Source of the DNA: Ascidiella aspersa | Taxonomy: Eukaryota | Assembly: GCA_963924565.1 (NCBI GenBank) | Contig: OZ004607.1 | Location: 8,308,001 to 8,372,000 of the forward strand | Length of the DNA: 64,000 nucleotides | Direction: 5' to 3' | Shown here: positions 1 to 44,000 of the stretch, in pieces | How positions within the stretch are numbered: position 1 is the stretch's first letter | Layout of the letters: each line of letters opens with the position of its first letter | Position numbers and translations under genes: made by a program | Notes under the pieces: model-generated | Databases searched by the model: none | What the model was told of the DNA's origin: nothing | What the model saw: only the letters and a program-made list of their open reading frames with translations

Positions 1-126
1 AAAGACGTGCTTAGTGATTGTGTGCCGCTTGCAAAAAGCATGCTCAGTAATTAAGGTGCGCATGCAGCAGACATGCTCTATATCATAACGCAGTTGCCTG
101 AAAAGTGCAACCAAAAAAAAACATGC

Positions 127-19600: not shown

Positions 19601-20313
19601 GACGCGATGAGGACACCGAAAGACCTTCTCGGCCACGAGAAGAAGGCGGAAGAGGCAACGATCAGGAGCGCAGACAAAGATCCCCGGATCGCGGTCGCCA
19701 TGGTGACGATCAACGCTGGCGCCGCGACTTCGAACAAAGGCGACAATCCCCGGATCGAAGACGCAAGAACGATAATAATGATAATGCTCGTACTCTAAAT
19801 CGTGACTTCCGGGATTCGCGAGACAGGCAGAGGTCTCCGGACCGTCGTCGTGACAACGGAAGACAGAGATCCCCGAATTCTCCTGGTCGTCGTCGTGACA
19901 ACAACAGAAATAGGTCCCCGGATCGCTCCAACCGTCGCCGGGATAACAATGTTCAAAGGTCCCCCGATCGTTCCGACCGTCGCCTTGACAACAGAAGACA
20001 GAGGTCCCCAAATTCACCGGATCGTCGTCGTGACAACGACGTAAAGAGGTCCCCAGATCGCTCGCGGCGCAATGACCGAAGCGAGAAGTCCACCCAGAGG
20101 CGATCTCCTTCGCCTCCATCACGGTCCTATAAGGAAGACCGCTCGCGTCGCGACACCAGGATGGACGGGAAAAAGAAGTACATCAAGCCTCGGAGCGCCA
20201 GCGTGTCTTCCGGAAGTCCCAGCTCCGGAAGCGAGAGCGATTCTTCTCCTCCTCCTCAATCGCGCCGGAGACCATCCCGGAGCGTTTCTCCCGATCCCAG
20301 ATCTCGCAGATGA
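10602..20313 (+). CDS. CWC22: Pre-mRNA splicing factor CWC22 (nucampholin; MIF4G + MA3 domains), complete, 14 exons
   Basis: Exons 10602-11326, 11725-11853, 11957-12125, 13135-13257, 13642-13779, 14132-14336, 14844-14918, 15279-15430, 15747-15824, 16271-16381, 17550-17719, 18055-18156, 18634-18746, 19256-20313, all GT-AG and in frame. Hallmarks [105 protein letters not shown] at ~20586. Confidence 0.97.
12389..12954. mobile_element. hAT-type MITE (CAGTGGTTCTCAACC family)
   Basis: TIRs CAGTGGTTCTCAACC / GGTTGAGAACCACTC; perfect 8-bp TSD CTGTAGAC; subterminal GGGGTCCG repeats. Confidence 0.9.
13437..13580. repeat. Degenerate local tandem duplication
   Basis: TCTTGAATGCTGCCTTCTCA..ATTGTCA.GATATTTTATG repeated. 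Confidence 0.7.
14434..14800. repeat. Diverged ~90-bp direct repeats (14434-14525, 14706-14800) flanking a hAT MITE 3' fragment
   Basis: TTAATCTAAACTTTTTTGTC..GATG.AACGCCATAAA..GCCAAGCTGTCC twice; GGGTCC..GATTGGGAATCGCTG between them. Confidence 0.7.
15968..16043 (-). pseudogene. Degenerate tRNA-like sequence (GGT/Thr-like anticodon); tRNA pseudogene or tRNA-derived SINE head
   Basis: A box TAGCTCAGTTGG, B box GTTCGAACC, cloverleaf with mismatches in the D, anticodon, T and acceptor stems; T7 run ~7 nt downstream. Confidence 0.75.
16727..17384. mobile_element. Fold-back element with two inverted hammerhead-like arms, interrupted by a hAT MITE
   Basis: Left arm ACTTAATTATTTTTTCCAACG..CACGCGAAAACGGCACAAAA is inverse to TTTTTGTGTCGTTTT..GCGTTGTG..[insert]..CGTTGGGAAAAATAAATAAGT. 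Confidence 0.7.
16901..17348. mobile_element. hAT-type MITE (CAGTGGTCGGCAAAC..GTTTGCCGACCACTG)
   Basis: Perfect 15-bp TIRs, subterminal GCGGCCC repeats; flanks CTTTACAG/CTTTAGTA (degenerate TSD). Confidence 0.85.
18794..18916. repeat. Degenerate tandem repeat
   Basis: AGTGGTTGTTTGACAA x3 and ATATTTG.TTGGATGTAAT x2. Confidence 0.7.
19670..20070 (+). repeat. Coding tandem repeat (R-x-R-S-P-D-R..RRDN) in the CWC22 last exon
   Basis: About eight SP(D/N) units; recurring DNA motifs CCCCGGATCG and CGTCGTGACAAC. Confidence 0.8.
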
Positions 20314-22635
20314 AGTGGGCAGCTAATGCTGTTGTTGTTTAAAAAGTGAATACAGTGCCGCCTGTGACGTCACAGTGAAGCGTTCTTTATAAGCGACCAA
20401 TCAGCAGAAGGCTAGTCGACTGGTGAATGCGAACCTTGTAGGGCGATTTTTGTGGATCGACCGACCTTTTCACGCTCGCTGTTACTGCCTGTCACTTTTG
20501 ACAAACCTGGAACTCGTGCGTTTTTGTGCGATTGTTATTTTTGTGAATAATAATGATGTAAGCTCCCTGCGAGCGGTGGCATCAAAATAAACCTGGTAAA
20601 GCATCAAAAACCCTTTTTTGTTTTGAGGTTAAAGTCTGTTGTTGTTCCAAAGGGAATTCACACGCTAGATGACAGCCATCCACAGTCTGCAAAAATATGC
20701 TTTTTTCAAGTTTCAGTAGAAATGAAAATATTAAGTTTTTGAACTGGTTCATTTTTATTCAAATAGTGAGTTTTTATGTGTGGCACTGAAAATATACGGG
20801 GTGGGGGATTTGGTGTTTAGTAAAATACATCTATACTACGTACATCTGTAAGATGGTACAGATATATTATTTGAATCTAATAAAAAAAAATAACAGTACA
20901 AATGCTCAACACAATAAAAATAGATTTTAATTTTTCCTTACTGGCATTTTGTTAACACATGACTTAAGCTACACACAAAATAAATGAAAAAGATTTTCGA
21001 AAAAACAGGGCTGTTTAAACACTGCTCAGAACGTAAAACAATTCAAAGACATTTTGTGGCAACCCTAACAACGCCAAACATGACCTTTTTATGGTGCCAA
21101 TAAAAGAAACTAAACACTCGGTTATTTTCGGACTTGGTTTAAATATTAACATTTCATGAGAAGTAGGACAAGTTGGTCGACCCAGAACAGTAATAAAAAA
21201 ATAGTACTGGACCTTTTAACAGAACCACAAAGGGTATAAAAAATAATCTAAGACAACTTTATTCAAAAAGAGCAGAATACTATAGTTATGCAAATTTCAT
21301 CATCAGTTCCACTTAAAAAAATTGTTTTTTTGTTGTTTGTAGTTTTCAAGCGGAACGGATGATGCATTTTGCTGTAGAATTGTAGACTTTACGCATCTTA
21401 ATATACCAACCGCAACGACTGTTAGTCAGGGATAAAAACTATTCATTATACTTTATTTTTCAAAACAAGGGCTCTCCAAGATAACAACACGACACATGAT
21501 TTCAGCTGAAAATAAGTTTTTAAAAAGTTAAAAAGTGTATTCTGACGAATCCGTGAGCATTCCTTCCTTGAAATTAAGGTTTTCTTCCGTTATTGTCTTG
21601 ACTTTAGTTTCAGGAGCCTGGCTTTTAGTATTGTTTTTGAATAAAAGTTGTTTTACAGCATTTGTTAAAAAAACAAAGCTTCGTTTTACTTCTGTAGTTT
21701 ATTTACAGCAGTAGTAAGGCAATGAGAGTACAAAGTGTGAGAAGACATTTCACTGGAATAGAAGGATGAAACAAGAACAAAATGTGAAACGCAGATGACA
21801 AAAAAAACATAGCTGCACATTTTTTAAGTTTAAAATACTTTCTTCGACAGCCGAAAAAGCTGGACTTTAGTTACTCTTACGTCAACGCTGGACATAACTT
21901 GCCTATAATCATAACAAGTCTTCATTAGTGCACAAAGGAATCCAACAATAATACCTTCAAAAAATAGGTTTAACAACGCATCAAAATGTTCGACTTCAGT
22001 ATTTTATTCAATCCTGATAGTTGTGTTATTCTTCTGAAAATGAAACAAAGCAATATGACATAACGAGGATCACCTAGAACTTCTTTAAAAAAACAGGATG
22101 TGTTTTTCTAAATTTACAATTAAAGGCGGGCAGTGATTGGTAGCCAGTCTCTGTTAGTTTTGGTTGAATTAAAAAATATTTTGTTAGTGTTACTGCCACA
22201 TTCAATCTGTTTATTTTCCACCATAATAGAGGCGCCAGTAACAGTAGGTAAGCAGCGCTTTTAAGAAGGTATGTACAGAAATGAGTAAAAAAACATAGAA
22301 CAAAGTTGTTGGTATAATGAAGATGTGAATAAGAGTTACGCGTGGCAAGACAATATAATTTATTTCGGATTAAACGGAAACGAAACTGCGAATATCTTTT
22401 AACTAAGTGGTCCATGGATCAGAGTTTAAGAACCTCACCATAAAAGCTATTTTGTTTTACAAGGGCTTTCAGCAACGTTTATTGCAACAGAGAATTTAAC
22501 AAGTGACAGCAGCCGATTTGCTAATTTTAGTAACATTTCAACAAAGATTAAGTAGTTGTTGGACCAGTGTTAGGGTTGCAAGGCATGAGTGATAGGGTTT
22601 TGAGTTGCTACAGCAGACAAAAAGGTGTTTAAGCC

Positions 22636-25600
22636 TCAAAGTTCCTGTGAAACCACCTTGGTTGTCCCACTCTTCTGTGCCTTCATCTGAGCCTGCATTT
22701 GCTGAACCATTTGCTGCATTCGACGAAGCTGTGAATGCGAGAAACGAATAATTGGTTAAAGCTTGTTAAGTAAATGTTTATTAATGAGCAGCACTCTTTA
22801 TGTTATACGACTTTAATTGTGACATTTACCACCTTGTTAACAAAAAGCTTCTTAGTATATTTTTTTATTTTGGAGTATGATAATTTTTTTTTATTAAAGT
22901 AGCTATTTTGCGAAAAAATGCCTACTGTATAAAAACAAATTTAATAAGCCGCCTTGAACCTTGGTATACAAATATCATTCGCAAACAATTTGAACATCGT
23001 TTTACATAACAGAACAGTCTTTTGGAACTAGTGTCGTTAAAAAAATGAAAAAAATATATTCTTGCCTCTGCGTCCTTTTCTTGTAGAGCTCGGTCGCTGG
23101 CATCCATCCTGAAATACAAAGATCAAAGTTATTTTAAGTAATTGCCGCTGCTTTTCTGAAAAGGAGTGTTTTTTGGAAGACTGGTGACATACTTTATAAT
23201 AACATCCTGCTCTCTGAGTAAATAAAAAGCTTGACTGTAGTCGTTAAGAAATGCCTATGCAGTTGGGAACACTACGACTCAAAAAATAGTTACTAATTAG
23301 TGCTGAGATGGACATAAACGGGTCAAAAAAGAGGTTAAGGGTATCTTCATCAGGCAATCAAACTCACGGAATCTCCGGTTCCTTTCCTTGCAGTTTGTTT
23401 GCGCGGAAGTTCTCATAATGCAGATCGTGCGTTACTTCTTGTAAATCCTGCATGTGAGTGCTGAAAAAGAAAATAAAAATAACAAAAAAATAAACCAAGC
23501 AAAAAAAATAAAACAAACTATATTCAATACAAAAAAAATATTTATTTAGGTCAAAAATTTTTTTTTAATTTTTTTTAACTTACATAAGCATGGTTCTAAG
23601 TTTGAGGAAGTCGCAGTGTTCTGGGTTCTCGACCTCAACAACGCCCCAAGGGTAAAGGCGACCTCTAACCTTTTTACCTTTGACCTCAATCATCTGTGTT
23701 GAGCCGACCACAGCAAACGGAATGCTTTCCTGGTAAAGGATAAAAAAAATATTAGGATGAGAAATATAGCGAAAGTTTGGTTATAAATAGGATAAATTTT
23801 GTGAAGTAACAAGAGTTTTATTTAAACATACATTGCCGTGTTTAATTTATTGTTGTTTAAATATATATACTAACTAACTTTTAAAATAGTGAAACACAAA
23901 ACTTCCAAGGTAACATGTTGCAAACTAGGTAAAATTAAAAAAACAATGAAACATTCAATGTTGCATCATTCCAGAAAAAAAACAAGTTTAGCCACAGTGA
24001 GTAGTAATTAAGTGCTAACATTTAGATATTTGTTTTAAATAAACAAAATGTTTATCACAGTAGTGTGCAGTTAGAAAAAAAATAAGCAGATTTACCAAAC
24101 AATATGAAAAATAAATTTTCAATTATGGTTGTTAATTTTAGCTTTCTATTTATCACATTTGAAAGGCTTCCAAGTTTCGGTGCTATTTTCGATGCCCATT
24201 TTCTCCAGTACTGTAAGCAAGTAAAAACTCCAATTGTGAAAATGCAGAATTGGTTCAGGCAAAATACAAAACATTTCTATATGGCTAAAAATAGCCATAA
24301 AATTAAAAATAACATGAACATCTCTGTGATTAATATTGTGGTGATTAATTTGTAAAATTGTTATTTATTGGAATAAATGCCAAATTGCCACAAATAAATT
24401 TAATGTATTTGCTTTATTTGAATAGGCGTGTTGATGTCTAAGTGGCTGGACTGTGAATATAAATGCATATATCTTAAAAAAATAGCTTTAACTTTAAATT
24501 AAAATATTAAACTACAAAAGCAACACAAACTGTACAGTCACATGTCTACAGAAGGTATGCTTCACACCTTTTTTAACCAAGTTTAACACAAAACTGGGTT
24601 ATTTTGTACCACATCTCGATTGGCCAGTATACGGCAACAAATATACACTTGTTATCTCTGTTACATGAACAATCAAGAACTGTAACAGTTTTTTTTATAC
24701 CAAACAAAGCCTTTACCTCTTCCTTTTACCAAGTTTCCATTTTCGAGTATATAACACATTTTAAATAAAAATAGAAAGTAAACAGCGACAATTTATTTTC
24801 ATATATCTACTTTAAACCACATTTATTTGAATATAGCAAAAGCGATTCTAAAAACTAAAACTTAACCACACTTTATGATAAGTCAGACTACAAAAACAAA
24901 CTATTAAACTATTGAATAAATATATTAAGAGTTAATTTTAATTATATAGTACTATGTAACCCTTATATTAAGATGACATGTTTTGCATTCCAAGTAATGC
25001 TTTATCTATAAGTAGCTGCTTGAATAATACAGATTTGTATACGACCCGCCATATCAATTTGCACTGTGATTTTTTAAGAATCGTTATTAAAACAACACTG
25101 TGTATAGGGTATATATATTAATAATAGGAATTAAGAGATAGTTCAATGGTATTGACAGTAGTGATAAAACTCAACAATAGTAGCTGCAAATTTTAATAAT
25201 TATTTGAGTCAGGCAATTGCAAAAGATTTGGCAAGCTCGAAGTTTTCGATGCCAATAAAGCAAATTGACAATTCCTGAGAAGATTACATATAGGCAAAAA
25301 CGCTGATTTATCATGTATTATAAGCAGGGCCATTTTTATTTTAACCTAAAAAAAATTTTTTTTCTTTAACGAAATTGCTTGTTTGTAGAGGCCACAGTTC
25401 TTCCTTGAGTTGATGCCAGTTACCCAAACATAATATTCTGTCGATTTCAGACCCAAACGTAATATTTTGTCGCAAAGTCAAGGTGTTTTATGGATTATAA
25501 AAAGTGCATCGGTTTTTTGGCGATAGATTTAGCTTGCTTAGGCATTTTTGTATTACAGAATGTCAGTAGGCTATTTCTAAAATCCAAATTGTTGATCTTC

Positions 25601-28600
25601 GAAAAGACCACGTTTATGAAGATAAAGTGTTTTATAAGATGTATTTAAATACGTAACATAACAATAAATAAAAAAATGGACAATTTGCGATAAAATTTAC
25701 CGCTGATCCATGTGGGAATTGTGACATATTGCCTGCTTTTATGGGTTACAATTTGCAATGCTTCCACAACGATTTTTACAAAAAATACTCTCAAGAAACA
25801 CAAAAACTTTGTCAAAAGGCATAATTTCACAAATTTTGACTTTATTAGAAAATTTTAACTTCATTGTAACTTTATTTTGACCTATAAACTTCTTAGAAAC
25901 AGTCCCCTAGGCGCTGAAAACAACTTTATTCTTTGATTCGTGGACAGACGAGGTCCTTAAATATTTTTAACTTTATTGACTTTTGCGGGCCCTAATTATA
26001 AGAGAGGTATTTTGCCAGTAGGATTGAAAATATGAAACTGAGTTATTATTACACAAAATAAAGCATTGTATATAATAACTAGGTATACTAAAAAAAATTG
26101 CCCCAGACTGCTAGTTGTTTGTTTTGCACATGTCTAGATGGTAGAGCACAAAAAACACTCAACATATTATTAAATATATGCTAGCTCAATTGACAATCAA
26201 TTTAAATTCCCAGTCTGCTAGTTTTAAACTATACAGGTAAAATACAATGTCACGAGCAATCCTCATTTACAAACTTTAAACAAAATTTGTTGCAAACAAT
26301 TTTTTTTTATAGTTTAGATAGGAACTTACCCGGAGCAATCTCGTTTGTTCCTTGAAGTCCTCATCCTCATCATCATCTGCATCCGGAAGCTGGTAGATCT
26401 GGATGCCGCTCATGGCGATCTCTTCCAGGATTCGTTTCTTCAGCTTCTTCACCTCGGGAATTGTCAGCGTGTCGGCTTTTGAGATCACTGGCACTATGTT
26501 GACCTTGTTGTGCAAGGCCTGCATGAACTCAATGTCGAGTGGTCGCAACCTTTAAAGACACAAAATGGGGTTTATTTTTGTCTATAAACATAATTAAAAT
26601 ATTTGTTTTCTCATAACTACAACAGTACATGTAACACAATTTTGACCTTTTTATTAGTTAACAATCTGTGTTTCATACAGTGCGATGACAATTTGATTTT
26701 TTGCAATTTTTGTTTGAATTTTTATTTCAGAAGCAACCTAAGTCTAGTTCACAATCTTGTAGTAAAACAAAATACATACATGGCTTGTAAACAGTTACAA
26801 TAAAAATATTTCAGTTGGCTTAAACAGTGAGAATTTTATGATCAAGAAAAGAAAGCGATCTCCTCACATTATCTAAAATGCACTAAACAACTTTGGTTTA
26901 CTTTTTTATGAAAACTGTTAGTACATTGACATACTTGGAAAAGGTTGATTCCACTTGAATAAACATTTTATTAGGTTTGTATTGGAAGAGCAAACTACCT
27001 ACCCATGGCCAGTTGACGACACAAAGTAGAAGCAGCAGTGGACTCGATTGTCGATGATGTGTCGTCTGTTCAGTCCACTTTCATCATGCAAGTAGCGCTC
27101 AAACTGGTCGTCTATGTACTGGATGATTGGCTTGTAACTGTGATGCAAAACAAAATAGTATGGTACAGCACTTACATTTGATTTCACACATTGTAAGTTT
27201 TTTTGGTCTAAAAATTCTGCTTTTTTTAACACACTCATTTTGTGATCAGATACAAAAAAGAGAGAAAAAATTAAAAAAAGCTAAATGACACAACAGGATT
27301 TAATTTTCGTTATTTAGCAAGAATTTAGTTGTGAGCCAGTGACGAACAAAGTTTTAAAGTTTTTGTTAAGAAATTTATTAATACATATATTCAAACGCAA
27401 TTAGTCAACTTAATAAGAAATTAACTAACGTCAATTAAGTTGGTGGCAAAACTTTAACTAATAGCTTAATTGGTTTGCATCCATTGCCAACAGCCATATT
27501 TTTATAAGTGCTTTAAAATTTGCACCTTAAAGAGTATATACAGTAGGTGAACCACAGTTTATGGGTGCCATAAACACCAGCCATTACTCACCAGTCTGAA
27601 CAGTTTATGGCATCCCCGTAGCCTGGGGTGTCGACAACAGTCAGTCGAAGTTTAACGCCCCTCTCTTCGATTTCAACCGTGCTGGCATCGATTTTCACCG
27701 TCTGCTTTACTTTGTTCGCCGCAGTGGGAACCTCACGCTCAGGGTACAAGTCGGTCAAGAAGAGACTGTTTACTAGGGTGGACTTGCCAAGGCCAGACTC
27801 ACCTTAATACAAATGGGTAACATATAACCTAATAGGCCATGTTTCCTGTTTACCCTCATTTTTAGGATTTGTACCGTCTGACTTATTGTTACATTGCTAT
27901 GTCATTATTTTATATTAAAGTGGGAATAAACAAACGTTGGCTTAACAATGATATTAACAAAAGGGGTGTCGAAAATGGAAGGGGCTTTGAATCTTAATTT
28001 TAGAAAGAATATTCTCTTTTTTAATACATCGGTCTAAATTATTATACTTTAAATGTAATCCTTCTTTATATATAGGCAGGCTTAAGCTTATAGGCAAACA
28101 TTTTAATTGCAAATTTGCTAGGAATAAAAAATCTGCTTTGTTCCTATACAAAAAGAAATTAGGAAATTCAGATTTTTTACATTCTACAAATTATTTACTA
28201 TCATAAACTCAGCACATGAATGTATTGCGTGACTGGTGATCATCTAAGGCAGTGGTTCTCAAATTTTTTAGCTCACGGACCGGTAAAATTTAAAAACAAA
28301 ATTCGCGGACCGGTGAACCTTTTGCAAAGAATGAAAATTTTATTTAATGAGCAATTGCTGTTGTCTTTTTTATAACATACGTGTTATACGTGTTTTTATT
28401 GAAGTTTTTTTACATACAACTGATCCTAAAGTTGACTTAAACCAGCCAAAACTTTATGTTACGTCACAATGCTGCAAATTACGCATCTGGCGAAGTTCTA
28501 AATTTGATGCAACTTGATTCAAATTGTCCGGAAGGTTTGTCCGCGAACCGGCGGTTGACCAACCACTGATCTATAGAAATTGTACATACAAGATAGGAGT

Positions 28601-31600
28601 TTAAATCAACACACCTGCCACCATGAGGGTGAACTCGAATCCTTTCTTCACAGATTTTCTGTGCACTTGGTTGGGCAGGTTCGCAAACCCCACATAACCA
28701 GGGGTCTCTGGGTTTGTGAACTGGAAAATTAGTTAGCACATTTCAGCATTGGTAAAAAACTTTTCTAACTACTTGAAGACTGATTGAAACGTTTTTGTTA
28801 ACAAGTACCAAACAACATTTTTTATGATTGTTTTGTGGTTATTTTATTGAAAGGCAGCGTATGCTTTGAGAGGTTTAATACAGCATCTCACTTTACCAAA
28901 ATTGCATTTAAAAATCCCAAAACTATAAAAACACTACACAAATTAGTAATTAATTAGGATACCCTATTTCCTTGTTTTAAAATTGCTTAAGACTATGGTT
29001 GCAATTCATTCCCAAAAATGGCTACTGAAATACCAGTTTAGACAATCTAACGACTCCCTACAGGGGAGACCACAGCACAGCAATGTGAATGAGTGATACT
29101 GTGGAGTACTTATGCAAGGGCTGTGATAAACAGTGAAAAAGTAATGCATTTTGACAATACCAAGCATTTAATCAGCAACATTAGCATTCTTGGTATATAT
29201 TTACATGATACTCCAACCTCCTCTGTAAAAAGTGATTTTTTTTAAGTTTGTCTGGCCTTAAATGTTATGAAATGATTCCAACTGACAATCCATTGGCATT
29301 CTTGCATTCACACATGTATATTATAATTAAACTTGTAAAATACATGAATGTATTGTGATATGTTTATGTTAATTGTTGGTTAAACATAATTTCCTGTATG
29401 CAACAATAGAAAATACCACGTAAGTGTAAATTTCAGCACTTAATTTAACAAGAAATAAAAATTACAAAATAAAATTGGATTTTACTTCACATAAAACACA
29501 GGATTATTTTGTCAGTGGCATGACATTAGTATGGTTTTAGAAAGCAGCTGCAGTATACAAAAGATTCCAATAAAATAAGTAAACTTTCAGGAAATTGAAA
29601 AGTGGGTAAAAGAAAGTGCTGCTGAAAGCATTCATGCATTGAGTTCATACAAAGGCAACAAAACATTGACCATGCAAAAAAATTATGCAGAAAAAGTGAC
29701 TTATCCATATCCTTGACCAATTCATTAACTCGTCAGTTATTGAATTTTAACACAGTTTGACATACAGCACCAATTCATGCACCCAGGCAATAGTTGCAAA
29801 TGTTTATTTATAAGCCTACAGGAAATATTTGTATATATGTATTATTTTCCATGTTTAAAACAAAAGAGGCGCCCTATTGTATTTGTTTTTTGTTGCCGTT
29901 AAGGTGACCAACCTTAAATTTTACTTGCTCTTCACGATCTTTCGGAATTGGGCTCGAGTAACCCTCATATTTCTTTCGAATTTCAGATGCATTGTACTGG
30001 TCAAGGAGAAATCAAAAAATCAGTGCAGAAAAAAAAGGCACAAAAGAAAGAAAAAAGCAAAACAAGAAGATTTCACACAAAAGGATATATCGCTACAATG
30101 ATAAATTCAGCATATTTAAGGCTTTAAAGCGATGAGAAACAAAACTAAGTCCAGGAGCCCTTTCCAGTCACACAATTTTGTTTTTTCTTAAATAAAAAAT
30201 ATTCTAAAATGTTACCAAACAATAAGAAATCGCATTCCATGTTTGTAAATTTAATTTTTTTTTTTTTGGTTAAAAAAACACACATTTAAAGAGTTTCAAT
30301 GAGGTTACATAATACACTGTCCTAGTCATTATTTTACAAATCACATTTTATCACTACAATTTTAAGGAAAGGTTCCAGGATTCTAATTCTTGCATAAAAT
30401 ATATTTTCTAGCAACTCTATATGATGACCATATGTTAGATTGTTACATGAAATAAAGCTGATAATATGCTGCAAGAAAAAATACAATATATATATATATA
30501 AATATATGAACAGGGTTTTCACTATACTTTACTCAGTAGGCTTCAACAGATTGTGGTTTATAGTGATACCCTAAGTTTATTCATTTTGAATACTAGAGTT
30601 TTATATATTTATTTGGCCTCTGCAAGGTGCAAACAAGGCAATTTGAATCAAGTAAAATGTTTTATTATTTGGGCTTTCTTTTGAACTTTCATGTTCTGAA
30701 AACAAGCTATTTAAGCTTTGTGAAATCATTGTATTTAAGTGCATTGTTTTATTAACTATAGGTTACGGCTTTTTTATTAATTAACTTTATATATTTAAAA
30801 CTAATAGTATGACATGCAAATGGTGGTGTTTAAACAAGATTTTTTTGCTAAAAAATAAAACTAATTACTACTTATGCAGGGTTTTCTTAAGACCAAACAA
30901 GCCAACACAAAATTATAAACATGTCATGCAGAATAGCTTCATGTAAAAAATTAACTTTAAAATAAATATTCCTAAACATTTAAATGTGAATTGTGAACTG
31001 TGAGCGCTTTAGAAAACTCAAACCTTTCACCAAGTGCAAACCAATCAGCCAAGTGCATAATTAGAATGTATTAATAATAAATTGAAACAAACTCACCTTT
31101 GGGTCTGTCAGCACAAAAACATGAAAAGTAAAAACATGTTAGCGTTAATTTTAAAATATACATTAAGCTGCAACGTGGAGTATTCTTAAACTAAAAACCT
31201 TGTAAGCAGACGTTAACAGTTAATTTATGCAACTTGAGGTGTTTCTTCAAAGAAGAAGTATTGTTGTATTTCTATTAAATGCTAGGCATTATTATATTTT
31301 GGTAGAGGATGCATACGAAAAATTGAGAAATCTTGTTGTTGCACTTACAAATAGTGCATCTTAGAAAACAACAGTACAACCCAATCAGTGCAGCCACGAG
31401 TCACCCACACAAAACTTAAGAAAAGACACACTGGAAATCTGGAAACTTTACATTAATACCGTTGTTGACACAAATAGAAACAAAACCTCTGTTGAAGGCA
31501 GGCTAATGAAATAGAATTAGGAACAATAAACGTATAGAATTAAAAACAATAATTGGCAAATAAGTAAAGTTACAGAAAGGCAAAACCTTTAATAACTATG

Positions 31601-32258
31601 AAACTTTTCACAGGCAAAGGTTAACGACAGTCAAAAATAAATTTACTGGAATAGCAATCAACACTTCAGAAGACAGGAGTTGGAAAAAATGAAATGCAAA
31701 GCAAACCTTACACACCTGTCATTTCTTCTCTTCGTAAAGGTTTACCGCTGACGTTTTTGCGTCGGATAATCTGGGCTACGTAATCTAATCCGAGCAATGA
31801 AAAACCCTAAGTTTACTGCAAATCCTTGCAAGACTGGAAAAGTTATTTTAAGTGTCAAAACGGTGTTTACAAATTTACTTCAAGTCGTTAATGTAAGTTG
31901 ATACTTTCGCGAACTACACCCTTCTGCTAGACGCACTGGCGCGTGACTCAGTTGGATGTTTTCACAGTCAGTCGGGGAGTGTGTCATTTCCTTTAAAAGT
32001 TTAGAACGGAACGGTTTGAATAGCTTTGTTTTTATGTAATAATTCCAAACGTTTAACTTTACACAGTGTATTAAATTATATTTAGTTAGGTCAAAGTTCA
32101 AGAAACAACAGTTCAATTCAGCCGAAAATTCTACATTAGATTATTTCAGTACAAACACTTATAGGCTACAGGAGCTTTTTTAACTTACCTGGCGCAAGTT
32201 GCGAAATGATCCTCGCATTTTTCCTGATGGAGCGGTGCCTTTCAAGTTGCTTAGACAT
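22636..32258 (-). CDS. SEPTIN2: Septin, SEPT2 group (septin-2-like), complete with alternative 5' exons
   Basis: Core exons 28615-28720, 27592-27802, 27003-27137, 26330-26549, 23584-23729, 23368-23460, 23066-23108 (GC donor), 22636-22728. 5' exons 32189-32258 or 31716-31722, plus microexon 31097-31104 and optional 29913-29996. [86 protein letters not shown] and EKDAELRRMQ closely match recalled vertebrate SEPT2. Confidence 0.95.
28250..28568. mobile_element. hAT-type MITE (CAGTGGTTCTCAA..GTTGACCAACCACTG)
   Basis: TIRs, CGGACCGG subterminal repeats, degenerate 8-bp TSD ATCTAAGG/ATCTATAG. Confidence 0.8.
29913..29996 (-). CDS. Putative 84-nt cassette exon of septin ([28 protein letters not shown])
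   Basis: Long pyrimidine tract + CCAG acceptor, open phase 0-0 frame, AAG|GTTGGT donor. Confidence 0.65.
31097..31104 (-). CDS. Putative 8-nt microexon of septin (ACCCAAAG)
   Basis: TTTTCATGTTTTTGTGCTGACAG|ACCCAAAG|GTGAGT; converts the phase-1 first exons to the phase-0 core exon. Confidence 0.75.
31716..31722 (-). CDS. Putative alternative first coding exon of septin (ATG ACA G)
   Basis: GAAATGACAG|GTGTGT; with the microexon gives [13 protein letters not shown]. Confidence 0.55.
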
Positions 32259-33820
32259 AGCTTATTCCCGGTGGTAATAAAACGCCAGAGTCAAATAAAA
32301 AAGCTACGCACGGGCGACGGAATGTTGCCGCGAGCCTTGTATATCCGAGTAGCCTTTCCTTCGCTATAAGATATGGAAATGCTCAACAGATTACAGACGC
32401 CTATTGCCGCGTACCTGTAAATTCAATGGAAAAAAAGCGTCTTCGCATCCGCCCGCGCAACGTTCAATAACATAACTAGCGCCTTCACCAGTTTTAGCCT
32501 ATCTCTCCAGCGACAAGAAATGAATCAATTCAGCTGCGTTGGTTAATTTTACCATTCATGCTAGTTGGCGTTTTCTTTTGCGGATCGCAGCTGACTGACT
32601 AACAATAATGTCAGGGTATCGCTACATGCTACAATAACCAAATGCTTCGCATCTCATCACGAACAGTTAAACGCGTTTTATCGCAGTAGGTTGAAGCGGC
32701 ACCGGCGAACTTTAACAATCGTGTAGATGTTTGCATACACCGCACTTCAGCTAGACTCCCTTTCCGCTGTTTTGAGGCCCAACTTTATAACCTGACAGCA
32801 GTGACAGGTGCTGCTGCTGCCGCCTCAAGTCGAAAGCAGACGTCCGCGCCCTTGTCTATTGTAGTTTTATTCGGTTCGGTTATTATGTTACACTTTGGGG
32901 AAATTGCCGGCGTCATTAGTCTGGCGTTCTAACCGCTGCTGGCCGCTCTATCTTGCCTGCCTTCATCGTCACAGTCAGGTCACGAATGGAGCCCGACACT
33001 GCGAGATGTTAGTTGTAAGTAAGACAACGCACACCCAGGGAAGCGCGATTGTGTTTGGACAAACAATAATGTGGCGATGACGTATAGCGTGCCAATACTC
33101 CGGTTTGAAGTGTATATTTTCTCTTTACTGTTCTGTCTGCGAAGGTCGATTAACGCTCTGTTTGCAGATAAGGTAAGTTGAATCAAGTTTTCCTGGCGAT
33201 GCTACAAAAGATCAGCTTACGCGAGCACAGCAAAAAGCGTTGGGCCACTTTTTTCAGCCAGCCCTTTGTCCACTGTTTGTCCAGTTTACATCCTCGCCGT
33301 TAAATCAATTGTCCCTTTGTCCACTCCGTTCGTTTTGAAGTAGCTGTGTTAACAGGCCTTATGCTACGCTATCTCAATCCGATATCAATCGACATATTAG
33401 CTCAATCCGCACAGCTTTACAGAGATAACCTTAACGGTTTAGGAGAGAAGGGGCTCGGTGTGGTTATTACGTCATGCCTCTTTTTATCCACTTGGTTAAC
33501 TTTCGTGTGCTGTTGTTCTTACCGAAAGGTTAGGCACCTATCTTTGACACGCACAAAAATACATGTTACTGGATAAAGCGTTTACTATCACCGTATAGGA
33601 CGCATGCATTCAGCATACTGCGATCGCAACAATCATTTTAGACTTCACACAATTACTTTGTTGGCTGCCATATTTCTACATGCTTTAATACTTCTGTTAA
33701 AGATTAATTTTAAAACAGTGCTTTTACTAAATATCCTTCCATGTCGTAAAATGTGTATAATTTTAGAAACCAGTCTTAAGTTTCCATTAAGACAATAGGA
33801 AGGCTATAAGTTCAATAGAT

Positions 33821-35043: not shown

Positions 35044-38000
35044 TCACGTGACCTTGCTCTTGCGAAGTTTGACCTTCTTCTTCCAGTCGTCGCTGATGGG
35101 CTCGAAGTTTGCGTTCATGGCGGCCTTGCCGCTGAAAAGACGAGATTCAAGCGAATTAGGGGAGAAATTGTTATTAATAAATTGGCATTATAAACCTTAG
35201 GACAGATATAAACAAAATTGGGAAGAATTAGTTTGTATACATTGTGTAGCGGTTTAACGAAAAGTAATTGCAGAAGTTTTGACCTGAAAGTAAGCGCATT
35301 AAGCAGGATTTCAAGGCAAGCAGGTGTCATTAAATATAGTAGCTGGTTTTAAACTTTAAAGCTGTTAGCTCTTCATATTGTATTAGGTTTCTTTATAATT
35401 TTAAATTGCCGAAGTAATTGATTTCCTTTATTCAAATATCTTTATAGGCCCGACTCAGATCGTATTACCCATGTAAAAATCATTAGATATAAGAAGCTTT
35501 GGCAGCATGATTGCTTTGTTACTACCTTTTTAAATACCAATTCGCGTTACATGAAGCTGAGCAGAGGTATGTATTTATTGTGGCTGTCTGTAGTTAATGT
35601 AGCAAGTTTGAGTCACAATTAAGAATCCTGGTCACCGGACACGCCTAATTCTATGCAATTCTGTCCTTCATTCTCTCATTGTTACAGCTGTGTTCAACCA
35701 GTTTAAACCCACCTTTGCAACTGATCGCTCTTCCACTTTCTGATCCTGTACTCCGGATCCATCTCAAGGTTGAGCTCCTCCTCCGACTCCATGATCAGCC
35801 TCTTCTCCTCTTCTTCGATCTCCTGCTTGGCTCGCTGCCACTTGGCTACCATGCCAACCATCTCGCGCGGAGGTTTCTTGGAAGAGGCGAGCTTGTCCTT
35901 CTTCACCTGCAAGTTGACATTTATTAAGTTAATTGACTGAAGTTGAGTTGTTATGATGTCAGCATATGCGCCGACCGTGGATGTGAAGATCGTTTTTAGA
36001 TGCCCTGGATTTTCTGACAGGGCGTCAAAATGCCCTGGAATTCGACAAGTTATTAATAAAAGTTGAAATTCAACTTCTGTAGCCCAGTTTTTTAGTTCAC
36101 CTAAAGCGTTTTAGTTCCTGAATTACCACGCATACACGAGGCCATACAACTCAAAAACTATATCTTTTAATTATACGTAAAGCCGGTTTTTTAATTTAAT
36201 GTTACGTTTTGCTGGTTTGATGGAAACGTGTTTAGCCTAAAGGCGCTGTAATAAAGTTTGTAATAACAACAGCGCAAAAGCTGTTATCTAAGAGCTCGCA
36301 TTTGGTGTGTAAGCACTTTTGCACTGGTCAAAGATAACGTCATGAAAGTTTGACAGTTCGTTGCCAGTAAATCGCAGGTTTATTATTGTTGGTTTGTTTT
36401 AAATTGCCTTCTGCATGGACGTTTATTATTATTGACGCAATTGTGTAGAGGGTAAAAATCCTTCTTTGATTATACAAGTTGACATTTTTTAATCTGTTTT
36501 ATGTTACATATCGTTGTAATTTTGACACGCACCTTTTTAATTTTTTTCGTAGCCTTTTCCACAGCAACGTTCCTGTTTGCGTTGTGTTGAGCAGGAGCAA
36601 AGTTGGCCGTGCTAGGCGGGGCAGCCAATACAGCAGGAGCACTCAGCACTGTGTTGTACTCGACAGGCCCGCGCTGGAGTTCTGTGGCTAAAAACAAACG
36701 CATTTTCTGATGTCAATATAATATCGATCATCGTTGGTGGCAGTTTTTCACGGAAGCACTTAAAGTTTACCACTTTATTGCAAAAAAGTAAGAGTTTTCA
36801 AAAGCCTAAAATGAAATATTTTGCCAAAATCTTAGTTGCGAAATTTAACTGAAAGCAGTTGTACATCACAGAAATGTTTTATAAACTCAATATTTAAACT
36901 GAAATTCTATAAAATTTGGGCTTAAATTCAAATCTGTCTAAAAGTTGTAACCACGTCTAAGGTCAGTGATTAAAAAACATTCATAACTACAAGAAACATT
37001 TTTTCTTTAAAGCGTATATTAACATAAGACGGATAGATAGATAGAATAACTGCAACAACTATAGGCTGCAGTACAATGTTGGCAAAAAAATTACAGTTGC
37101 TTGATCACGAAGGCAGCGAAAGACCACAAGGTACATTGAGTCAACCGCAACCTGAAAAACAAAACCCACCAGTTGTTCCATTGTTTGTCGCCTGATCCTC
37201 AGCATCGCTTATCTCCATCTCAATCCCATCATCATTCACTTCACCTTCCTCAATCTCATCTTGAGTAGGAAGAGGCGGGGGTGGGGGAGGAGGGGGTAGG
37301 GGGGCATCCCCCTCCGATGGGGGTGCAGGGGGTAGCGGGGGCTCTTCCTCTGGTGGGGGAGGGGCTACATCCTCGCCAGGGGGAGGCGGGGGGACTTCCC
37401 GCATGGGTGAATTGCGGAAAGATGGGTCAAACCCGGGGTAATGCTGTCCGTAGGGCATTCCTGCGTACTGGCTTTGCATGCTCCAGTATTGGTAGTTCTG
37501 CATATTGTATCCGGCTCCTGTGGCACCAGGGTAAGTCATCATGTCCACGTTGGCCCCTGGGTCGGTGCCGGTTACCGCTGCTGCTGCCGCCTGGACTTCT
37601 GATGCCGAGATTTTTTCAGACTTGCCGGAGGTTATTGAATCCTTGCTTTCCTCTGTAGCGTTTGGTTAGGTTTAGTTATTGTTTGGTTTAGTTGATTTTA
37701 GCAACTATTCAAATTAGCTTAAGTAATTATTTTTTTTTGTTATTAAAATTTTTCTAAAATAAATAAATAGAAAGGGCAATGGAAATTTATCCTGGAAAAT
37801 TTAAAATCAAATCGAAATTGAACTACATATAATATTTGAAACCTCATATAATTCCAACCAAATTATGTCGATTAGGTATATAAGTTGCCAAAAATAAGTT
37901 TTTTTCTAGACCCAAAAGTGTACAACATTATCAGAAAACATTACAATTCACACTAACCATTGATCATATCCTGATCCAAGTTGGATGTAGTGGCGGGTGA

Positions 38001-41000
38001 CATTGTGGCAGTGGCAGTGGCAGGTGCTTCTTCCGACAACGCAAGGGGTGCTACCTCTTTTGGAAAGGTCCACTGAGACTGGCCGGTCTTTTTGTTCATG
38101 TAGAAATAGCGTTTGCGCTCGCTGAAGGTTCATGGAAAAATCAAAACACAAAGAAAGAGTCAACGACGCGCAGAAAAAGCATTTTCGCATCAGAAAACGA
38201 TCGACCGCAGCATAGTAGTTAGGTAGCGTTTTAAAAAAGTCACATACCTTCCTTGAATTCCCGGGATTCTACCATAATTTCCAGTCCGGTCTCCACGCGA
38301 CGAAACGGCAGCAAAAACCTGTGTGTGTGTTTTCTATACTTACGCTGCAAAAAGCGAGGAGAGGTGGCCTCCGCGACAGGGGGCGCCCATAACTTTGCTA
38401 ACAGCAACAAAGGTCTAACTCTCTGATTTTTCTGTCGTTACTTAAAGGATGGATCAAGATTTTCTACTGTTAATTCTGGCATTTCTCCCCGCCAATTTGC
38501 GGCGTCTTGAAGTGAAAGTTCTAGCAACAATAAATCGTCTAGTGGAGCCATGAGCGTACCTGTCCCACTGGCACGCCCATCCCGCCGGCACCGCGTTCGT
38601 CTCGTACTTTTCCAGCTGCTCTTCCGCCTTCTTCAGCTTTTTGAGGAAATAAACCGCGGCCAGTTCGCCGGCTTTGTAATCGGTCGAACGAACCTAAAAA
38701 TGGAGAATGAATTATGTAGAAATCAGTGGTGCCATTTCTAATGCTCAAGGGTGTAGATTGGATAGGTATTTGAGAATTTTTAAGAATCTGAGTTTTGCTC
38801 AATTGGTAAGCTTCTTGATGCCACTATTTGTGTACGATTATAGACCATTATATCAAATGACATTTTCCTACATGTTTTAAGTTGACTGTGTTGTTCCAGT
38901 ACCATTTATAGTGACATTTCGGTAAAATTCTAAATGAAAATTCCAGCCGAGGTACCAAAAATCTATTTATTATTTTTGAGGGGTGCCGTAAGCTAAAAGA
39001 TTGAGAATTGAGAACCAAAGATTGAGAATGACTGGTATAAATTGTGGCTGCAAGGCATGAAATCGATTTGTATAGGCCTGCTGGCATTGGCAAATATATA
39101 AGCTTTGTTGTTTTACTATTAATGTTCAACAGTTTCTATCAGTAGGATATGGTTATTGTTAGTTCAATTCTACTTGTTTTTGTTCAAAAACCTGATTTTC
39201 GTGGCCAAACAAGCAAAATAAATGAAATTAAAATGCGCAAATAAAATATTTTTCAGATTATTTAGCCATAATTTGCTTAGCATTAAAAAGCTTACAGACT
39301 TAGTTACAAACAACAATGTAAGAAATTTGCCTTGAAGGTAAACATCATGGGTTGGATCTAAAAAATAGCTAAAATTTGTCATTTTGATTTCGGTTGGCAC
39401 TGGTAACACACCCTGTCACCAGTCGAATGCAGAACACTTGTTAGAAGGTATCAGGCTTGATTCGACAATTTCAAAAGTCATAAAGTGTTCTCACAAAATT
39501 TAACCTACCTCAATTTCCATCAGCAGTTTGTGGAAATCAGTGAGGCTATCCTTGGATATTTCCAGAAACGAGAGCTTTCCCAGGAGAGTTGATTGCAGTT
39601 TATCGATGCTTCCCTGTTCAGAAAAGAGAATACAATAACTTTTAAAAGTTATTCCCGACGCTCTAACTATTCTGGACATATAGTGGCAAATTTTATTACA
39701 AATTCAAACTGCAACAAAATAGTAAACCAGCTTACATGGTAATTACTAAAATTACACAACTAAGAATTGTACTTTTTGAAACTTTGACAAAATTGCACAA
39801 CCCTAGAGAATCACTATAGATAGCAGTTTTAAAGCTGTTGTCCACACAAGATAAACTGAGCAAAGTATTTCAGCCATGCATAGAGCACTACTTGCTGCCT
39901 TGTCAGTAGAAAATAAGCGGTAATGTAATGGATTGTGGATTTGGTTCAACAAAATAATGTATATTGTTCTGAAATTTTTTACTTAGAAATAGACCAAAAA
40001 AAATAGTGAATAGGCATGTCTGATACTTGACATTCTATCACAATCCGATAGGAAATGACATCATTACTACGTTCAAGTAGGCAAATAGATACAATTAAAG
40101 TGCTAAGATGTATTTTTCCAGGTTATTACGTCATCATTTGGTTTATAGTTGAAAACATTTAGTTGCCTTTAAATAATTATTAATATACTATTTTTTATCA
40201 AATTTAGCTTTTAATTTACAATCACAAATCCTGGCCAGAAAAGCTATATTAATTTGGGATGTTATTTGCACTGATACAACAACTCGGTATCTGGTTTTGG
40301 CTCCGATGTGGTATTATCGAACGTCCCTGTTATTAAACATACGGCCCTTATTTAAAGAAGACATTCACCCCTGTTTGAAACAACAATAAAAAAAACATTT
40401 GAAATGAGAAGAAAATAAACTGTGTTAAGTAAACCTTATAGTGTAATAAGTTCCAGTCAAGTAGTAAAACAACAAGTCATAATCAAGTTAATTTAAACAC
40501 ATTGCCGTAAAAGTAAAGTCCAAGTCTTATCACTGGCTTCAAAAATAAATGCTACACTTACAAAGTCTATGAATAGTGAATACCGACTACTGAGTAAAAT
40601 TTTGGATAAATCAAATTCGAAACAAATGGAAAGTTAAGATTTGAATTTCAAGTCATTTGCATAAATTCATTCGGCCAACACAAGTTATTTTCGCCAAGAA
40701 ACAACTTATTTTCGCCAGAAAGACTAAAGCCAAGTGATTTGAAAATAGTAACTTAAAATTAATAAAATATTTATTTAGTGACACGTCTATCCAGGACAAA
40801 CAATTTATAAAAACATAACTGAAAAACAATAATAAAATTATACATAAACCCTTTCCAAATGCCATTCCTAGATATATAACCCAGGAAAGTGTCTAACAAC
40901 AACCGGTAATATTTCTTTTGTGTTTAGGCTACTCAACTCTATGGACAATGCTTGATACGCCAGATGAACCAAGGGCCATGCTTGGATTACATCATGGAGT

Positions 41001-44000
41001 TCGTAACGTATAGATACCAAGCGTTGATTCGTAACATATAGATACCAAGTGCACTTATAATGCAAACCACCTTGTGTTTTAAGTTTTCAGACTCTGATTG
41101 CTCCTTATCCGAAGCAGTCTGAGTGCTTCTGTCGTCAGTTTTTACGACATTTGTCTTGACTAAAGCAGGTGAATCCACCCGATCGGCCTTCCGAGAGACA
41201 AAACCACCATCGGGAAGAATTGGTGTCATGTCGTATTTGCTGGAGATACACAAAAGGCAAGGTTTAATTGCTGAGGACCCAAAATAAGTCTAAAATATTT
41301 CAGGCAACTTTTTAATGATTTTGAGATGTTTGTAATTTGTATTCTATTCAGATACCCAATACTTAAGGAAAATTTCTGTTGGTTCGATAGTAAATGACTT
41401 CCTTACCATGCTCAACAAAGCAAAATTATTCAAATTGAAATGTGCAATAAACATAATATTTTCCATGTTTTAAAGAAAATATTTGCAAAGAAACTTAATT
41501 TTAGTTGCCTTTAATGTTAGTATATTATTTTCTTTAAAAGATAACCTTTCAAAATAGAAAAAAGTTTAGCTGATCGCAAACCATGACTCAAATTCAACAT
41601 GTAATTTAGTATCGGTGTCAATCACCCAAATATCTGACGAGCACCGTCACTACCACTTGGTATTGGGCATTGGCTCCAATATGGTTTTATCGGATATTAA
41701 TAATATTGGAACTAATAACCTATTGACTAGTTTAACGAATTAGGTAACAAATAAAATCATTTTTTTTAAATGGAATCTTGCTTGAAACCGAAAAACCTTA
41801 ACACATAGGTCAAAAAATGAGTTATAGGCAATACCTGAGATCTTCATCTGGTCCACTATCTTCTTCGGATTCATTCATCAATCTGTGACAACAATAAATC
41901 GCTTTTTCATGGTGACTGTTTTTACTAACAAGGCGCCAGCTGTGAAAACGCTTAGTGTGCAATTGTTAACTTTAGTTCAAGGAAACCTAAAGCAAGCCCC
42001 CAAAAATGTGGGAGATTTAGTAGATCCACTAAATTTCAGGCAAGGGCCTAGGCTAAATTACAGCAGGACTGCCACCGGAAATACAAAATGTATATACTAT
42101 TTCGGGTTGTTAATGCCATGAAAATCGCAACATCTGCACAGAAGCTGTGTGCCAAGTCAGCTAAAAAAGTTTGAGGAATAATGATCTAAGAACTAACATT
42201 GTGATATTTGCAAAATGCTTTCTGCACAAGGAAAAAAACTTTCTTATTCGCTAATGTGTTGAATGCACATTTGTCATTCAGCCAACTTAAACGCGCTGTA
42301 TTAAAAAGTACTGCGTCTACGGTCGACCTAGGTTTAAACTCAAGACGAAAGACAGCGTTTTGTGGTTGATTTCGGTTTTGCATTAGGTTAAGATGCAAGA
42401 CCCAACTACAAATAAAAAATGAAAATAGTTGCCACCTTGTACAACGAGTTGAAACTCGTAAAAAAGATATTGGCACTTTTAAAAGGATCTGGGGGTCCGG
42501 ACCCCCAAAGGCCTCAGAATACATTCATACGATTTTAAAACTATAGCATAATAAACTTGGCAAAAAATATACTAACCCATCTCTCCAGCTGGTGATTGGC
42601 TCCACCTTTTCTTTCTTGGCACTGATAACTACAAATAAATTTGTAAATGTTATTTAGCTTTTTAAACAGCGACTACCCTTAGTTGCTACTGTTAAAGAAT
42701 ACTTAAAAATAATTTATTTTCACTTTGACAACACATTGGAATAAAAACACAAGCACAATATTTTAAACTAGATATTTTAATTTACAAGTTTACCATCAGG
42801 TTGAATTCCATTTGAATTCTCGGCCTTCATCTTTCTCTTCTTAGAATGAATTTCTAAAAAAGATTTTGATTTATTTAGTATAAGAAGAGAATAGATTTTT
42901 AAAAGTTGTGATTTATACACACACGCAAAAATAAAGGTAAAGCAAATTTGGAAAGGCGGTAAAAAAATAAAATATCATTGACCGAGATAATATGTCTTTG
43001 ACCAATCGCCTAATTTAAGCAATGTGTAAATTGCAATGTATGATAAATAACAGTTTTGTAATTACACAGCATTAAACACACCTGTGGAATCTAAGGCATT
43101 GTCCAGTTCAGCGTCGACATCAATTTCAACAACTTCCTTCTTTGGCTTTACCGCTTTCACTTCAAGTCTATAACATTTAAACCATTAAAAATAACTACAT
43201 AATATAAATATATACTGTGTAACTGGTTTTCATTACATAAAATATGTTTGACATGCTTAACCGTTGGGTATCAAGTCGTTTCATTTCAAATAAGCACACG
43301 TTATTTGCAATTTTGTTTCAACTAAATATAAAATTTTAGTTTGCGAAGACGAACAATTAGATGTTTCACAGTCATGCAGATAAATGCGATAATTTATAAC
43401 ACGCCATCCGATTAAATGCTGCTTTCACACAGGCTAAAGAATGTGACTCCATTTGTGGGGAATAATTTAGTTAACCCATTTCAGGCACAATAAGGAAAAC
43501 AATAGTCAAGGGACGACCAACATATATGCTGTATAAGTGTATACTATTAAAAAACATGATCAATACACATCTTTACATTAGTGTTGAACTTTTGGATATT
43601 TCGCTTTAATTTTTAAAAGGCAATTTTTTATAATTTTAAAAATAATACTAACTTATTTTGTCTTTTCTCAAGTTCCTTTTTCTTTTCTTCAAGGGCAGCT
43701 GGAATTAACAACATAAAAATTTACCAACATTGCTCAGTCTCAATTAACAATGTCTAACATTAATCAACAGTAATCAAAATGACAAAGTTGGCAACAGTTT
43801 TACATATTACCACAAACCTTTTAATGATGTCCGTGACTTTAACAAAACTTCTGTTTTCGATGCAGGTTGTTTGGCAGGTTTTGTTTCAGATGCAGCGGGT
43901 ACTTTTTCTGCAATTTTTTGTGGTTCTTTTGCCGATTTCTTTTGCACCGATTCAGCTTTCTTTGCCATTTGACTCTCGTACTGCTTCATAACAGACTCGG

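What the first reader, a model, noticed from the sequence alone, without database searches (positions are those of the whole stretch)
30813..32258. Frame-switching 8-nt microexon couples promoter choice to septin N-terminus
Both candidate first exons ([11 protein letters not shown], 32189-32258; MT-G, 31716-31722) end in phase 1, while the core exon starts in phase 0. The 8-nt exon ACCCAAAG fixes the frame, giving ..[11 protein letters not shown]. Exon 1a also has an internal ATG (32218) that gives [10 protein letters not shown] in phase 0, in frame only when the microexon is skipped, so skipping could swap N-termini rather than destroy the ORF. The microexon has a UGC just upstream of the AG (an SRRM4/eMIC-type signature), a CTAAC branch-like site, and two downstream TGCATG (30925, 30813). 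MSKQ also matches the start of human SEPT2 as recalled.
Basis: partly seen in the sequence, partly recalled or inferred. Interest (0 to 1): 0.7.

Follow-up and report, generated by a model that had tools for sequence, protein, structure and literature searches.

The report
Sea-squirt septin-2 linker microexon
An 8-letter exon in a sea-squirt septin gene is real and is spliced onto both alternative first exons in RNA, but it is likely a fixed linker, not a switch; the part that varies is a neighbouring 84-letter exon, and related sea squirts already have the same protein variants annotated, so this is largely ordinary.

Summary
The sequence observations hold. The gene is an ascidian septin-2 on the minus strand. 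RNA shows the 8-nt exon (31104-31097) joined to both first exons: spliced contigs of run X3 for both, and 6 raw reads of X4 for exon 1b. No skipping joint was listed, but 25 joints were hidden. Its share of spliced joints into the core exon is 19 of 25 reads in X4 and about 35% of depth in X3, and three TGCATG follow it. Ciona and Styela records show the same two-by-two design, first exon by cassette; 19 of 23 named ascidian records with an N-terminal extension carry D/E-P-K. The microexon serves both first exons, so it couples nothing to promoter choice. The internal ATG is forced by an Asn-Ala codon pair and cannot occur in the coding part of Styela's long first exon. No eMIC core was found in the genome. 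Two downstream TGCATG (9 of 1000 shuffles) leave regulated skipping open. Verdict: a real, likely constitutive linker microexon; low novelty.

The parts
32189..32258 (-). Coding part of long first exon 1a (23 basic residues plus 1 nt, phase 1); RNA runs further upstream
   Evidence: joint 28722-32189 at depth 147.8 and contig 32189-32821 in X3; 75% identity to Ciona P0012 residues 1-24
32216..32218 (-). Internal ATG of exon 1a (+1 frame), formed by Asn(AAT)-Ala(GCG); likely incidental
31716..31722 (-). Coding part of short first exon 1b (ATG, one codon, 1 nt; phase 1)
   Evidence: Joint 28722-31716: 6 reads in X4, depth 163.6 in X3
31138..31142 (-). CTAAC branch-point-like site at -38, followed by a pyrimidine tract; no AG for 65 nt before the acceptor
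31111..31113 (-). TGC at -9 of the microexon acceptor
   Evidence: background 21% per 17-nt intron window
31097..31104 (-). 8-nt microexon (phase 1 to phase 0), completes D-P-K
   Evidence: Letters between joints and a 9-letter loose end at 32189 in X3; D/E-P-K in 19 of 23 named ascidian records with an N-terminal extension
30925..30930 (-). TGCATG (Rbfox-type motif) at +167 of the microexon
30813..30818 (-). TGCATG at +279 of the microexon
29913..29996 (-).
   Evidence: Joint 28720-29913: 19 reads in X4, depth 164.8 in X3, while joints that bypass it also exist; 82% identity to Ciona and Phallusia
29633..29781 (-). Three TGCATG at +132, +237, +275 of the 84-nt cassette
   Evidence: 4 of 1000 shuffles reach 3
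28615..28720 (-). First core exon (phase 0 start); its last codons hold the next in-frame ATG
   Evidence: 35 of 35 residues identical to CiSeptin-2, PDB 9bht_A; joints
27592..27802 (-). Core exon 2 (P-loop and G3); skipped-microexon frames stop 1 nt into it
27003..27137 (-). Core exon 3
26330..26549 (-). Core exon 4 (G4 motif)
23584..23729 (-). Core exon 5
   Evidence: 5' joint, 3' joint not listed there (repeat skipped)
23368..23460 (-). Core exon 6
   Evidence: 3' joint
23066..23108 (-). Core exon 7, ends at a GC donor
   Evidence: Joint 22728-23066 CT..GC, 10 reads in X4
22636..22728 (-). Last coding exon to the stop codon; RNA depth continues to about 21500-21900

Best explanation
The 8-nt exon is spliced behind both first exons of this ascidian septin-2 gene and is likely a constitutive linker that keeps their reading frame, while N-terminal variety comes from first-exon choice and a separate 84-nt cassette that is likely Rbfox-enhanced. 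Each first exon ends one base into a codon; the microexon adds 8 bases and delivers phase 0 to the cassette or the core exon, giving proteins of 353, 374, 381 and 402 aa. Shown: both first exon-microexon-core joints and the cassette-core joint exist in RNA. Inferred: near-full inclusion of the microexon in all tissues; the microexon-cassette joint (from a contig end and from relatives); splicing of so short an exon helped by a strong donor, a distal branch point with pyrimidine tract and two downstream TGCATG; Rbfox control of the cassette; separate promoters.
For: X3: joints into the core exon are cassette 164.8, exon 1b with microexon 163.6, exon 1a with microexon 147.8, unspliced 36.4. They total 512.6 against 589.9 leaving the exon (581.1 + 8.8), 87%, while neighbouring joints range 467-821., X4: 25 reads enter (19 + 6) and 18 leave. 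The exon-1a contig of X3 ends with the microexon plus the one base shared by cassette and core, as expected at a fork between them. Ciona and Styela records show long and short first exons with and without the cassette; of 30 named ascidian records, 19 carry D/E-P-K, 1 G-S-K, 1 L-Q-K, 2 neither, 7 are truncated or fragments. 25 of 27 unnamed tunicate-like records carry a D/E-x-K motif (loose pattern). Skipping gives stops after 59 or 38 codons, 1 nt into core exon 2, and one search found no second SEPT2-type locus (5 candidates scored). In human brain about 81% of micro-exons were constitutive (PMC4317164, passages).
Against: The joint table hid 25 rows and lists raw-read joints only from 3 reads, so skipping up to roughly 13% in X3 is not excluded. 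Only two RNA data sets of unknown tissue were seen; X4 had 0 reads for the exon-1a joint. Two TGCATG within 300 nt downstream exceed chance (9 of 1000 shuffles), and the same paper finds this motif enriched behind alternative, not constitutive, micro-exons and says constitutive ones get rarer as size falls. The branch point-pyrimidine-UGC-AG layout matches that of SRRM3/4 targets. The protein census is blind to skipped transcripts, and 325-327 aa records that start at the downstream ATG exist (P0123, P0136, P0140). Clavelina P0121 and P0122 lack the tripeptide.
Confidence: 0.75

Rival explanations
1. The microexon is a regulated on/off exon: Rbfox at the two downstream TGCATG raises inclusion, and in other cells skipping shifts the frame and sends the mRNA to nonsense-mediated decay or to a truncated septin from the downstream ATG.
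For: Two TGCATG at +167 and +279; 0 in the 9 introns that do not follow the microexon or cassette. The motif is enriched behind alternative micro-exons in human. The premature stop lies upstream of six further joints. A decayed product would be scarce in RNA data. Rbfox1/2/3 is named as a Ciona cardiopharyngeal gene (PMC10219245, one passage).
Against: No skipping joint among those listed in two RNA data sets, and a depth budget near closure. No second SEPT2-type locus was found, so broad silencing is unlikely (inference). The motifs may only help a very short exon be recognised.
Confidence: 0.15
2. One reading: skipping the microexon swaps the N-terminus by using the internal ATG at 32218, under SRRM4/eMIC-type control.
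For: The frame is open and would give 358 aa, or 386 aa with the cassette. The ATG has A at -3. The Asn-Ala pair that allows the ATG is also in Ciona and in unnamed record P0171. UGC at -9 and CTAAC at -38.
Against: The ATG follows from the conserved first frame. The Styela long first exon has no codon pair that can hold such an ATG in its coding part. No record has such an N-terminus. It would work for exon 1a only, and only by leaking past the first ATG. No eMIC core was found by four looks, although the Pfam model finds it in P0228 and P0304.
Confidence: 0.06
3. On a side point: exons 1a and 1b are not two promoters but one transcription unit processed by alternative spliced-leader trans-splicing or retention of 5' sequence.
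For: Spliced-leader trans-splicing is common in ascidians (recalled, no call). An acceptor-like site with a pyrimidine tract ends at 32415, and RNA extends to 32821 upstream of exon 1a.
Against: No strong acceptor was found upstream of exon 1b (best pyrimidine fraction 0.6). X4 shows depth 10.2 in the bin of exon 1b against 2.8 in the bin of exon 1a, which fits a start of its own.
Confidence: 0.2

Closest known systems
Ciona intestinalis septin-2B RefSeq isoforms (XP_002125452.2, XP_018667113.1, XP_009858358.1, XP_009858359.1) and CiSeptin-2 of PDB 9BHT
   Same: Orthologous gene; the same long and short first-exon peptides, the same D-P-K, the same 28-aa cassette, present or absent. The 9BHT construct is the long form with D-P-K and the cassette (P0132).
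   Different: Ciona records add a third first-exon peptide and two longer acceptor forms of the cassette, which were not found here. The Ciona exon borders were not seen (no Ciona DNA available), so its microexon is inferred from the proteins.
Styela clava septin-2B-like isoforms X1-X4 (XP_039256951.1 to XP_039256954.1)
   Same: Same two-by-two design with E-P-K in all four.
   Different: Diverged long first exon with no room for a +1-frame ATG in its coding part.
Constitutive and RBFOX-enhanced micro-exons (PMC4317164, passages read)
   Same: Very short exon with a near-consensus donor; downstream TGCATG as in the alternative class.
   Different: Human data; here a non-3n exon directly behind ATG-bearing first exons, with features of both classes.
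SRRM3/4 (eMIC)-dependent neural microexons (bioRxiv 10.1101/2024.09.17.613571, passages and section 10; PMC8797185, passages)
   Same: Branch point, pyrimidine tract, UGC close to the AG, long AG-free zone.
   Different: Not frame-preserving; no sign of tissue-restricted inclusion; eMIC core not found in this genome.

Membership tests
SEPT2-group septin | Septin G domain with best matches to SEPT2 | tested here: met
   Core exon 1 identical over 35 aa to CiSeptin-2, next hits human Septin-2; core exon 2 96% to Phallusia septin-2B; Pfam Septin on the Ciona orthologue P0130; G1, G3, G4 motifs in the translation
Real spliced microexon | Present between flanking exons in RNA, AG/GT borders | tested here: met
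   joints and letters between; borders
Constitutive microexon | Inclusion of 90% or more across tissues | tested here: inconclusive
   Two RNA data sets of unknown tissue; no skipping joint listed, 25 joints hidden; depth budget 87%
Constitutive microexon | No enrichment of downstream TGCATG (PMC4317164) | tested here: not met
   Two copies within 300 nt, 9 of 1000 shuffles
SRRM3/4-eMIC neural microexon | UGC between branch point and AG | tested here: met
   TGC at -9; weakly specific: 3 of 10 acceptors of the gene have TGC within 20 nt, background 21%
SRRM3/4-eMIC neural microexon | Strong distal branch point, pyrimidine tract, long AG-free zone | tested here: met
   CTAAC at -38, pyrimidine fraction 0.74, previous AG at 65 nt, the third longest of 10 acceptors
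SRRM3/4-eMIC neural microexon | Usually frame-preserving (3n); recalled, the source paper was not held | tested here: not met
   8 nt; skipping gives stops after 59 or 38 codons
SRRM3/4-eMIC neural microexon | Included in neurons, skipped elsewhere | tested here: inconclusive
   Included in both data sets, tissue unknown
SRRM3/4-eMIC neural microexon | An eMIC-bearing Srrm2/3/4 protein encoded in the genome | tested here: inconclusive
   Not found with PF15230, an exact pattern, a 41-aa query or tblastn over the locus and 40 kb downstream. The model does detect P0228 and P0304, but the genome search has no positive control, so absence is not shown
Rbfox-enhanced cassette (84-nt exon) | Alternative inclusion with downstream TGCATG cluster | tested here: met
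   Included and bypassed forms in both runs; three motifs, 4 of 1000 shuffles
Rbfox-enhanced cassette (84-nt exon) | Inclusion depends on Rbfox; motifs conserved in relatives | not testable with these tools
   No perturbation data and no DNA of other ascidians; Pfam Fox-1_C not found in the genome, the RRM was not searched

The most novel reading that the evidence does not exclude
The 8-nt exon is a regulated frame switch: where Rbfox is low it is skipped, silencing short-first-exon transcripts while long-first-exon transcripts restart at the internal ATG and give a septin-2 with a different N-terminus, in a genome that may have lost the eMIC microexon enhancer.
Probability: 0.07. Interest if true: 0.6.

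Novelty: new member of a known kind. Interest (0 to 1): 0.2.

Why it matters
As it stands it is a gene-model point. An 8-nt frame-shifting exon is easy for annotation to miss, which likely explains the 325-327 aa ascidian septin-2 models that begin at a downstream ATG. The gene also offers a compact test case for Rbfox-type control in ascidians, with five TGCATG in the two introns behind the microexon and the cassette and none in the other nine. If skipping proved regulated, it would link one splicing factor to the amount or the N-terminus of the only SEPT2-type septin found in this genome. If the eMIC core is truly absent, the exon would show an eMIC-like acceptor layout working without that factor.

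Tried and rejected
A closer read-out of the joints between 28540 and 33300 was not obtained, so the hidden joints stay unseen. Run search: no RNA holder listed by index; X3 was taken as RNA because its contigs are spliced, and X1 and X2 behave as DNA. A homologue search with the first 62 residues of P0130 found only 2 known records; a search with the SRRM2-like exon found none. No counterpart of the extra Phallusia segment behind the cassette was found in the window. A third first exon is not shown; one candidate donor with an open phase-1 ATG ends at 32415. The MSKQ likeness to human SEPT2 was rejected as non-positional. Amphioxus records show alternative N-termini without a shared tripeptide, so no shared microexon is claimed there. 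Paper searches that found no description of this exon: microexon+septin (6 hits), Ciona+septin+isoform, eMIC+microexon+Ciona, SRRM4+eMIC+tunicate (0 hits), Ciona+microexon, Ciona+Rbfox+TGCATG, Sept5+microexon (0 hits); only listings were seen for these. The original eMIC paper and one further microexon paper were not held. One supplement file of PMC4317164 was not searchable and may list septin micro-exons; bioRxiv supplements are closed. PMC12445529 and bioRxiv 10.64898/2026.05.07.723466 (passages) added nothing on this exon. Three look-ups of earlier scan notes returned nothing.

Full report
Gene and organism. The window lies on contig C1 of a 308.6-Mb genome. The region holds a minus-strand septin gene. 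Its first core exon is identical over 35 residues to CiSeptin-2 (PDB 9bht_A). Core exon 2 is 96% identical to Phallusia mammillata septin-2B, 91% to Ciona and Clavelina and 89% to Styela. The organism is therefore an ascidian, and the gene is septin-2. A search of the genome with core exon 2 found this locus and one more distant septin (63% and 49% identity, 5 candidates scored).

Observation. Exon 1a (32258-32189) and exon 1b (31722-31716) end in phase 1, the 8-nt exon lies at 31104-31097, and the core begins in phase 0 at 28720. The internal ATG at 32218 is open in phase 0. TGC is at -9, CTAAC at -38, and TGCATG at +167 and +279.

RNA evidence. Four runs were laid on 21500-33500. X4 is raw RNA reads (about 6 in 100 of the run read), X3 has spliced contigs, and X1 and X2 behave as DNA. 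The joints 28722-31716 and 28722-32189 skip 2 letters fewer than a direct splice would, and in X3 carry 6 letters between; together these 8 letters are the microexon. Depths in X3 are 163.6 (exon 1b) and 147.8 (exon 1a); X4 has 6 and 0 reads. The cassette-to-core joint has 19 reads in X4 and depth 164.8 in X3. The cassette thus makes up 19 of 25 spliced reads into the core in X4 and 164.8 of 476.2 depth units in X3. No direct joint from a first exon to the core is listed. The limits are real: 25 joints were hidden, raw-read joints need 3 reads, contigs drop rare forms, and the tissues are unknown. In X3 the depth entering the core exon (512.6 with unspliced RNA) is 87% of that leaving it (589.9), within the spread of neighbouring joints (467-821). 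The joints upstream of the cassette were not listed. Indirectly, the exon-1a contig ends with the microexon and one base shared by cassette and core, which is where a fork between the two would cut it.

Relatives. Ciona records have a long first-exon peptide (75% identical to exon 1a in its first frame), a short one and a third one, each followed by D-P-K and then the cassette or the core. Styela has four records in the same two-by-two pattern with E-P-K. Of 30 named ascidian records, 19 carry D/E-P-K (two of them tagged constructs), one G-S-K, one L-Q-K, two neither (Clavelina P0121, P0122), and seven are truncated or fragments. Of 27 unnamed tunicate-like records, 25 carry a D/E-x-K motif by a loose pattern. 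This census cannot see skipped transcripts, which would give no in-frame N-terminus; three records of 325-327 aa start at the downstream ATG and could be annotation or assembly cuts, or real skipped forms.

The internal ATG. It is the AT of an Asn codon and the G of the next Ala. The pair is conserved in the first frame in Ciona and in unnamed record P0171, so the ATG needs no function of its own. The Styela long first exon has no residue pair that could hold a +1-frame ATG. Among 73 N-termini compared, the best match to the alternative 10-mer was 4 of 10, in a limpet. Skipping would give ORFs of 59 or 38 codons from the first ATGs, stopping 1 nt into core exon 2, upstream of six further joints; decay is the expected fate (inference), though stops near the start can escape it (recalled).

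Cis elements and factors. The acceptor has the layout described for SRRM3/4 targets (10.1101/2024.09.17.613571, passages and section 10; PMC8797185, passages). The TGC alone says little: 21% of random intron windows have one, as do 3 of the gene's 10 acceptors. The SRRM2/3/4-like gene on contig C2 has cwf21 and ends in a stretch that aligns with the flanks of the eMIC segment of P0304 but lacks its centre. Three genome-wide queries found no eMIC core. The Pfam model does detect P0228 and P0304, yet the genome search had no positive control, so absence is not shown. The TGCATG motifs are above chance: five in the two introns behind the microexon and cassette, none in the other nine; 9 of 1000 shuffles reach two behind the microexon and 4 of 1000 reach three behind the cassette. 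PMC4317164 (passages) reports about 81% of human brain micro-exons constitutive, but TGCATG enriched only behind alternative ones. This is the main point against my reading.

How it most likely works. Transcription starts at exon 1a or 1b (two promoters inferred). Either exon is spliced to the microexon (shown), which brings the frame to phase 0. The message then goes to the core (shown) or through the cassette (cassette-core shown; microexon-cassette inferred). The four products have 353, 374, 381 and 402 aa and differ only upstream of the conserved stretch that precedes the G domain. The cassette is likely the regulated element, probably enhanced by Rbfox; the motifs behind the microexon likely help so short an exon be recognised. 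Confidence 0.75; regulated skipping to decay 0.15; N-terminal swap 0.06.

Comparison and verdict. The same isoforms are annotated in RefSeq for Ciona and Styela, and the long form was used for PDB 9BHT. Seven paper searches found no description of this exon (listings only). It works like a linker microexon; it fails the frame test for an eMIC-type neural microexon and meets only the cis-layout tests. New member of a known kind, interest 0.2.

Noticed in passing
G000:C2:32004543-32007196 (L090) and downstream loci L086-L089: The SRRM2/3/4-like gene ends in a stretch that aligns with both flanks of the eMIC segment of P0304 but lacks its centre; no eMIC core was found in 40 kb downstream or by three genome-wide queries. 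This may be a loss of the microexon enhancer in this lineage; absence is not shown.
   Followed up: partly
window 22729-23065: GC-AG intron before the last coding exon, supported by 10 reads in X4 and a contig in X3.
   Followed up: yes
window 32415-32448: A pyrimidine tract with CAG directly followed by GT: acceptor-like and donor-like at once, with an open phase-1 ATG at 32448. Could be a trans-splice acceptor or a third first exon.
   Followed up: partly
window about 25340-26000 and 28260-28510: High-copy repeats in two introns: depth in DNA-type runs up to about a thousand times the single-copy level.
   Followed up: no
proteins P0012, P0134, P0171 versus window 32189-32258: The basic core of the long first-exon peptide is kept in Ciona and in a distant unnamed marine record, which suggests a function of its own; none was tested.
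   Followed up: no
window 31097-31104: Recalled, not tested: human SEPT5 is remembered to have a phase-1 first exon followed by an 11-nt exon. Several invertebrate septin-2 records also start with a D/E-x-K/R motif. A short non-3n exon here may be old.
   Followed up: no
window about 10587-20310 (+), 1-9060 (-), 35700-47320 (-): Neighbouring open frames resemble CWC22, DEPDC5 and FNBP4; the names are recalled from the translations and come from no search.
   Followed up: no
proteins P0123, P0136, P0140: Septin-2 records of 325-327 aa for Clavelina and Styela (one of them an unnamed record in the Styela cluster) begin at the downstream ATG; the newer Styela version is shorter than the older one, possibly because the microexon was not aligned.
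   Followed up: no
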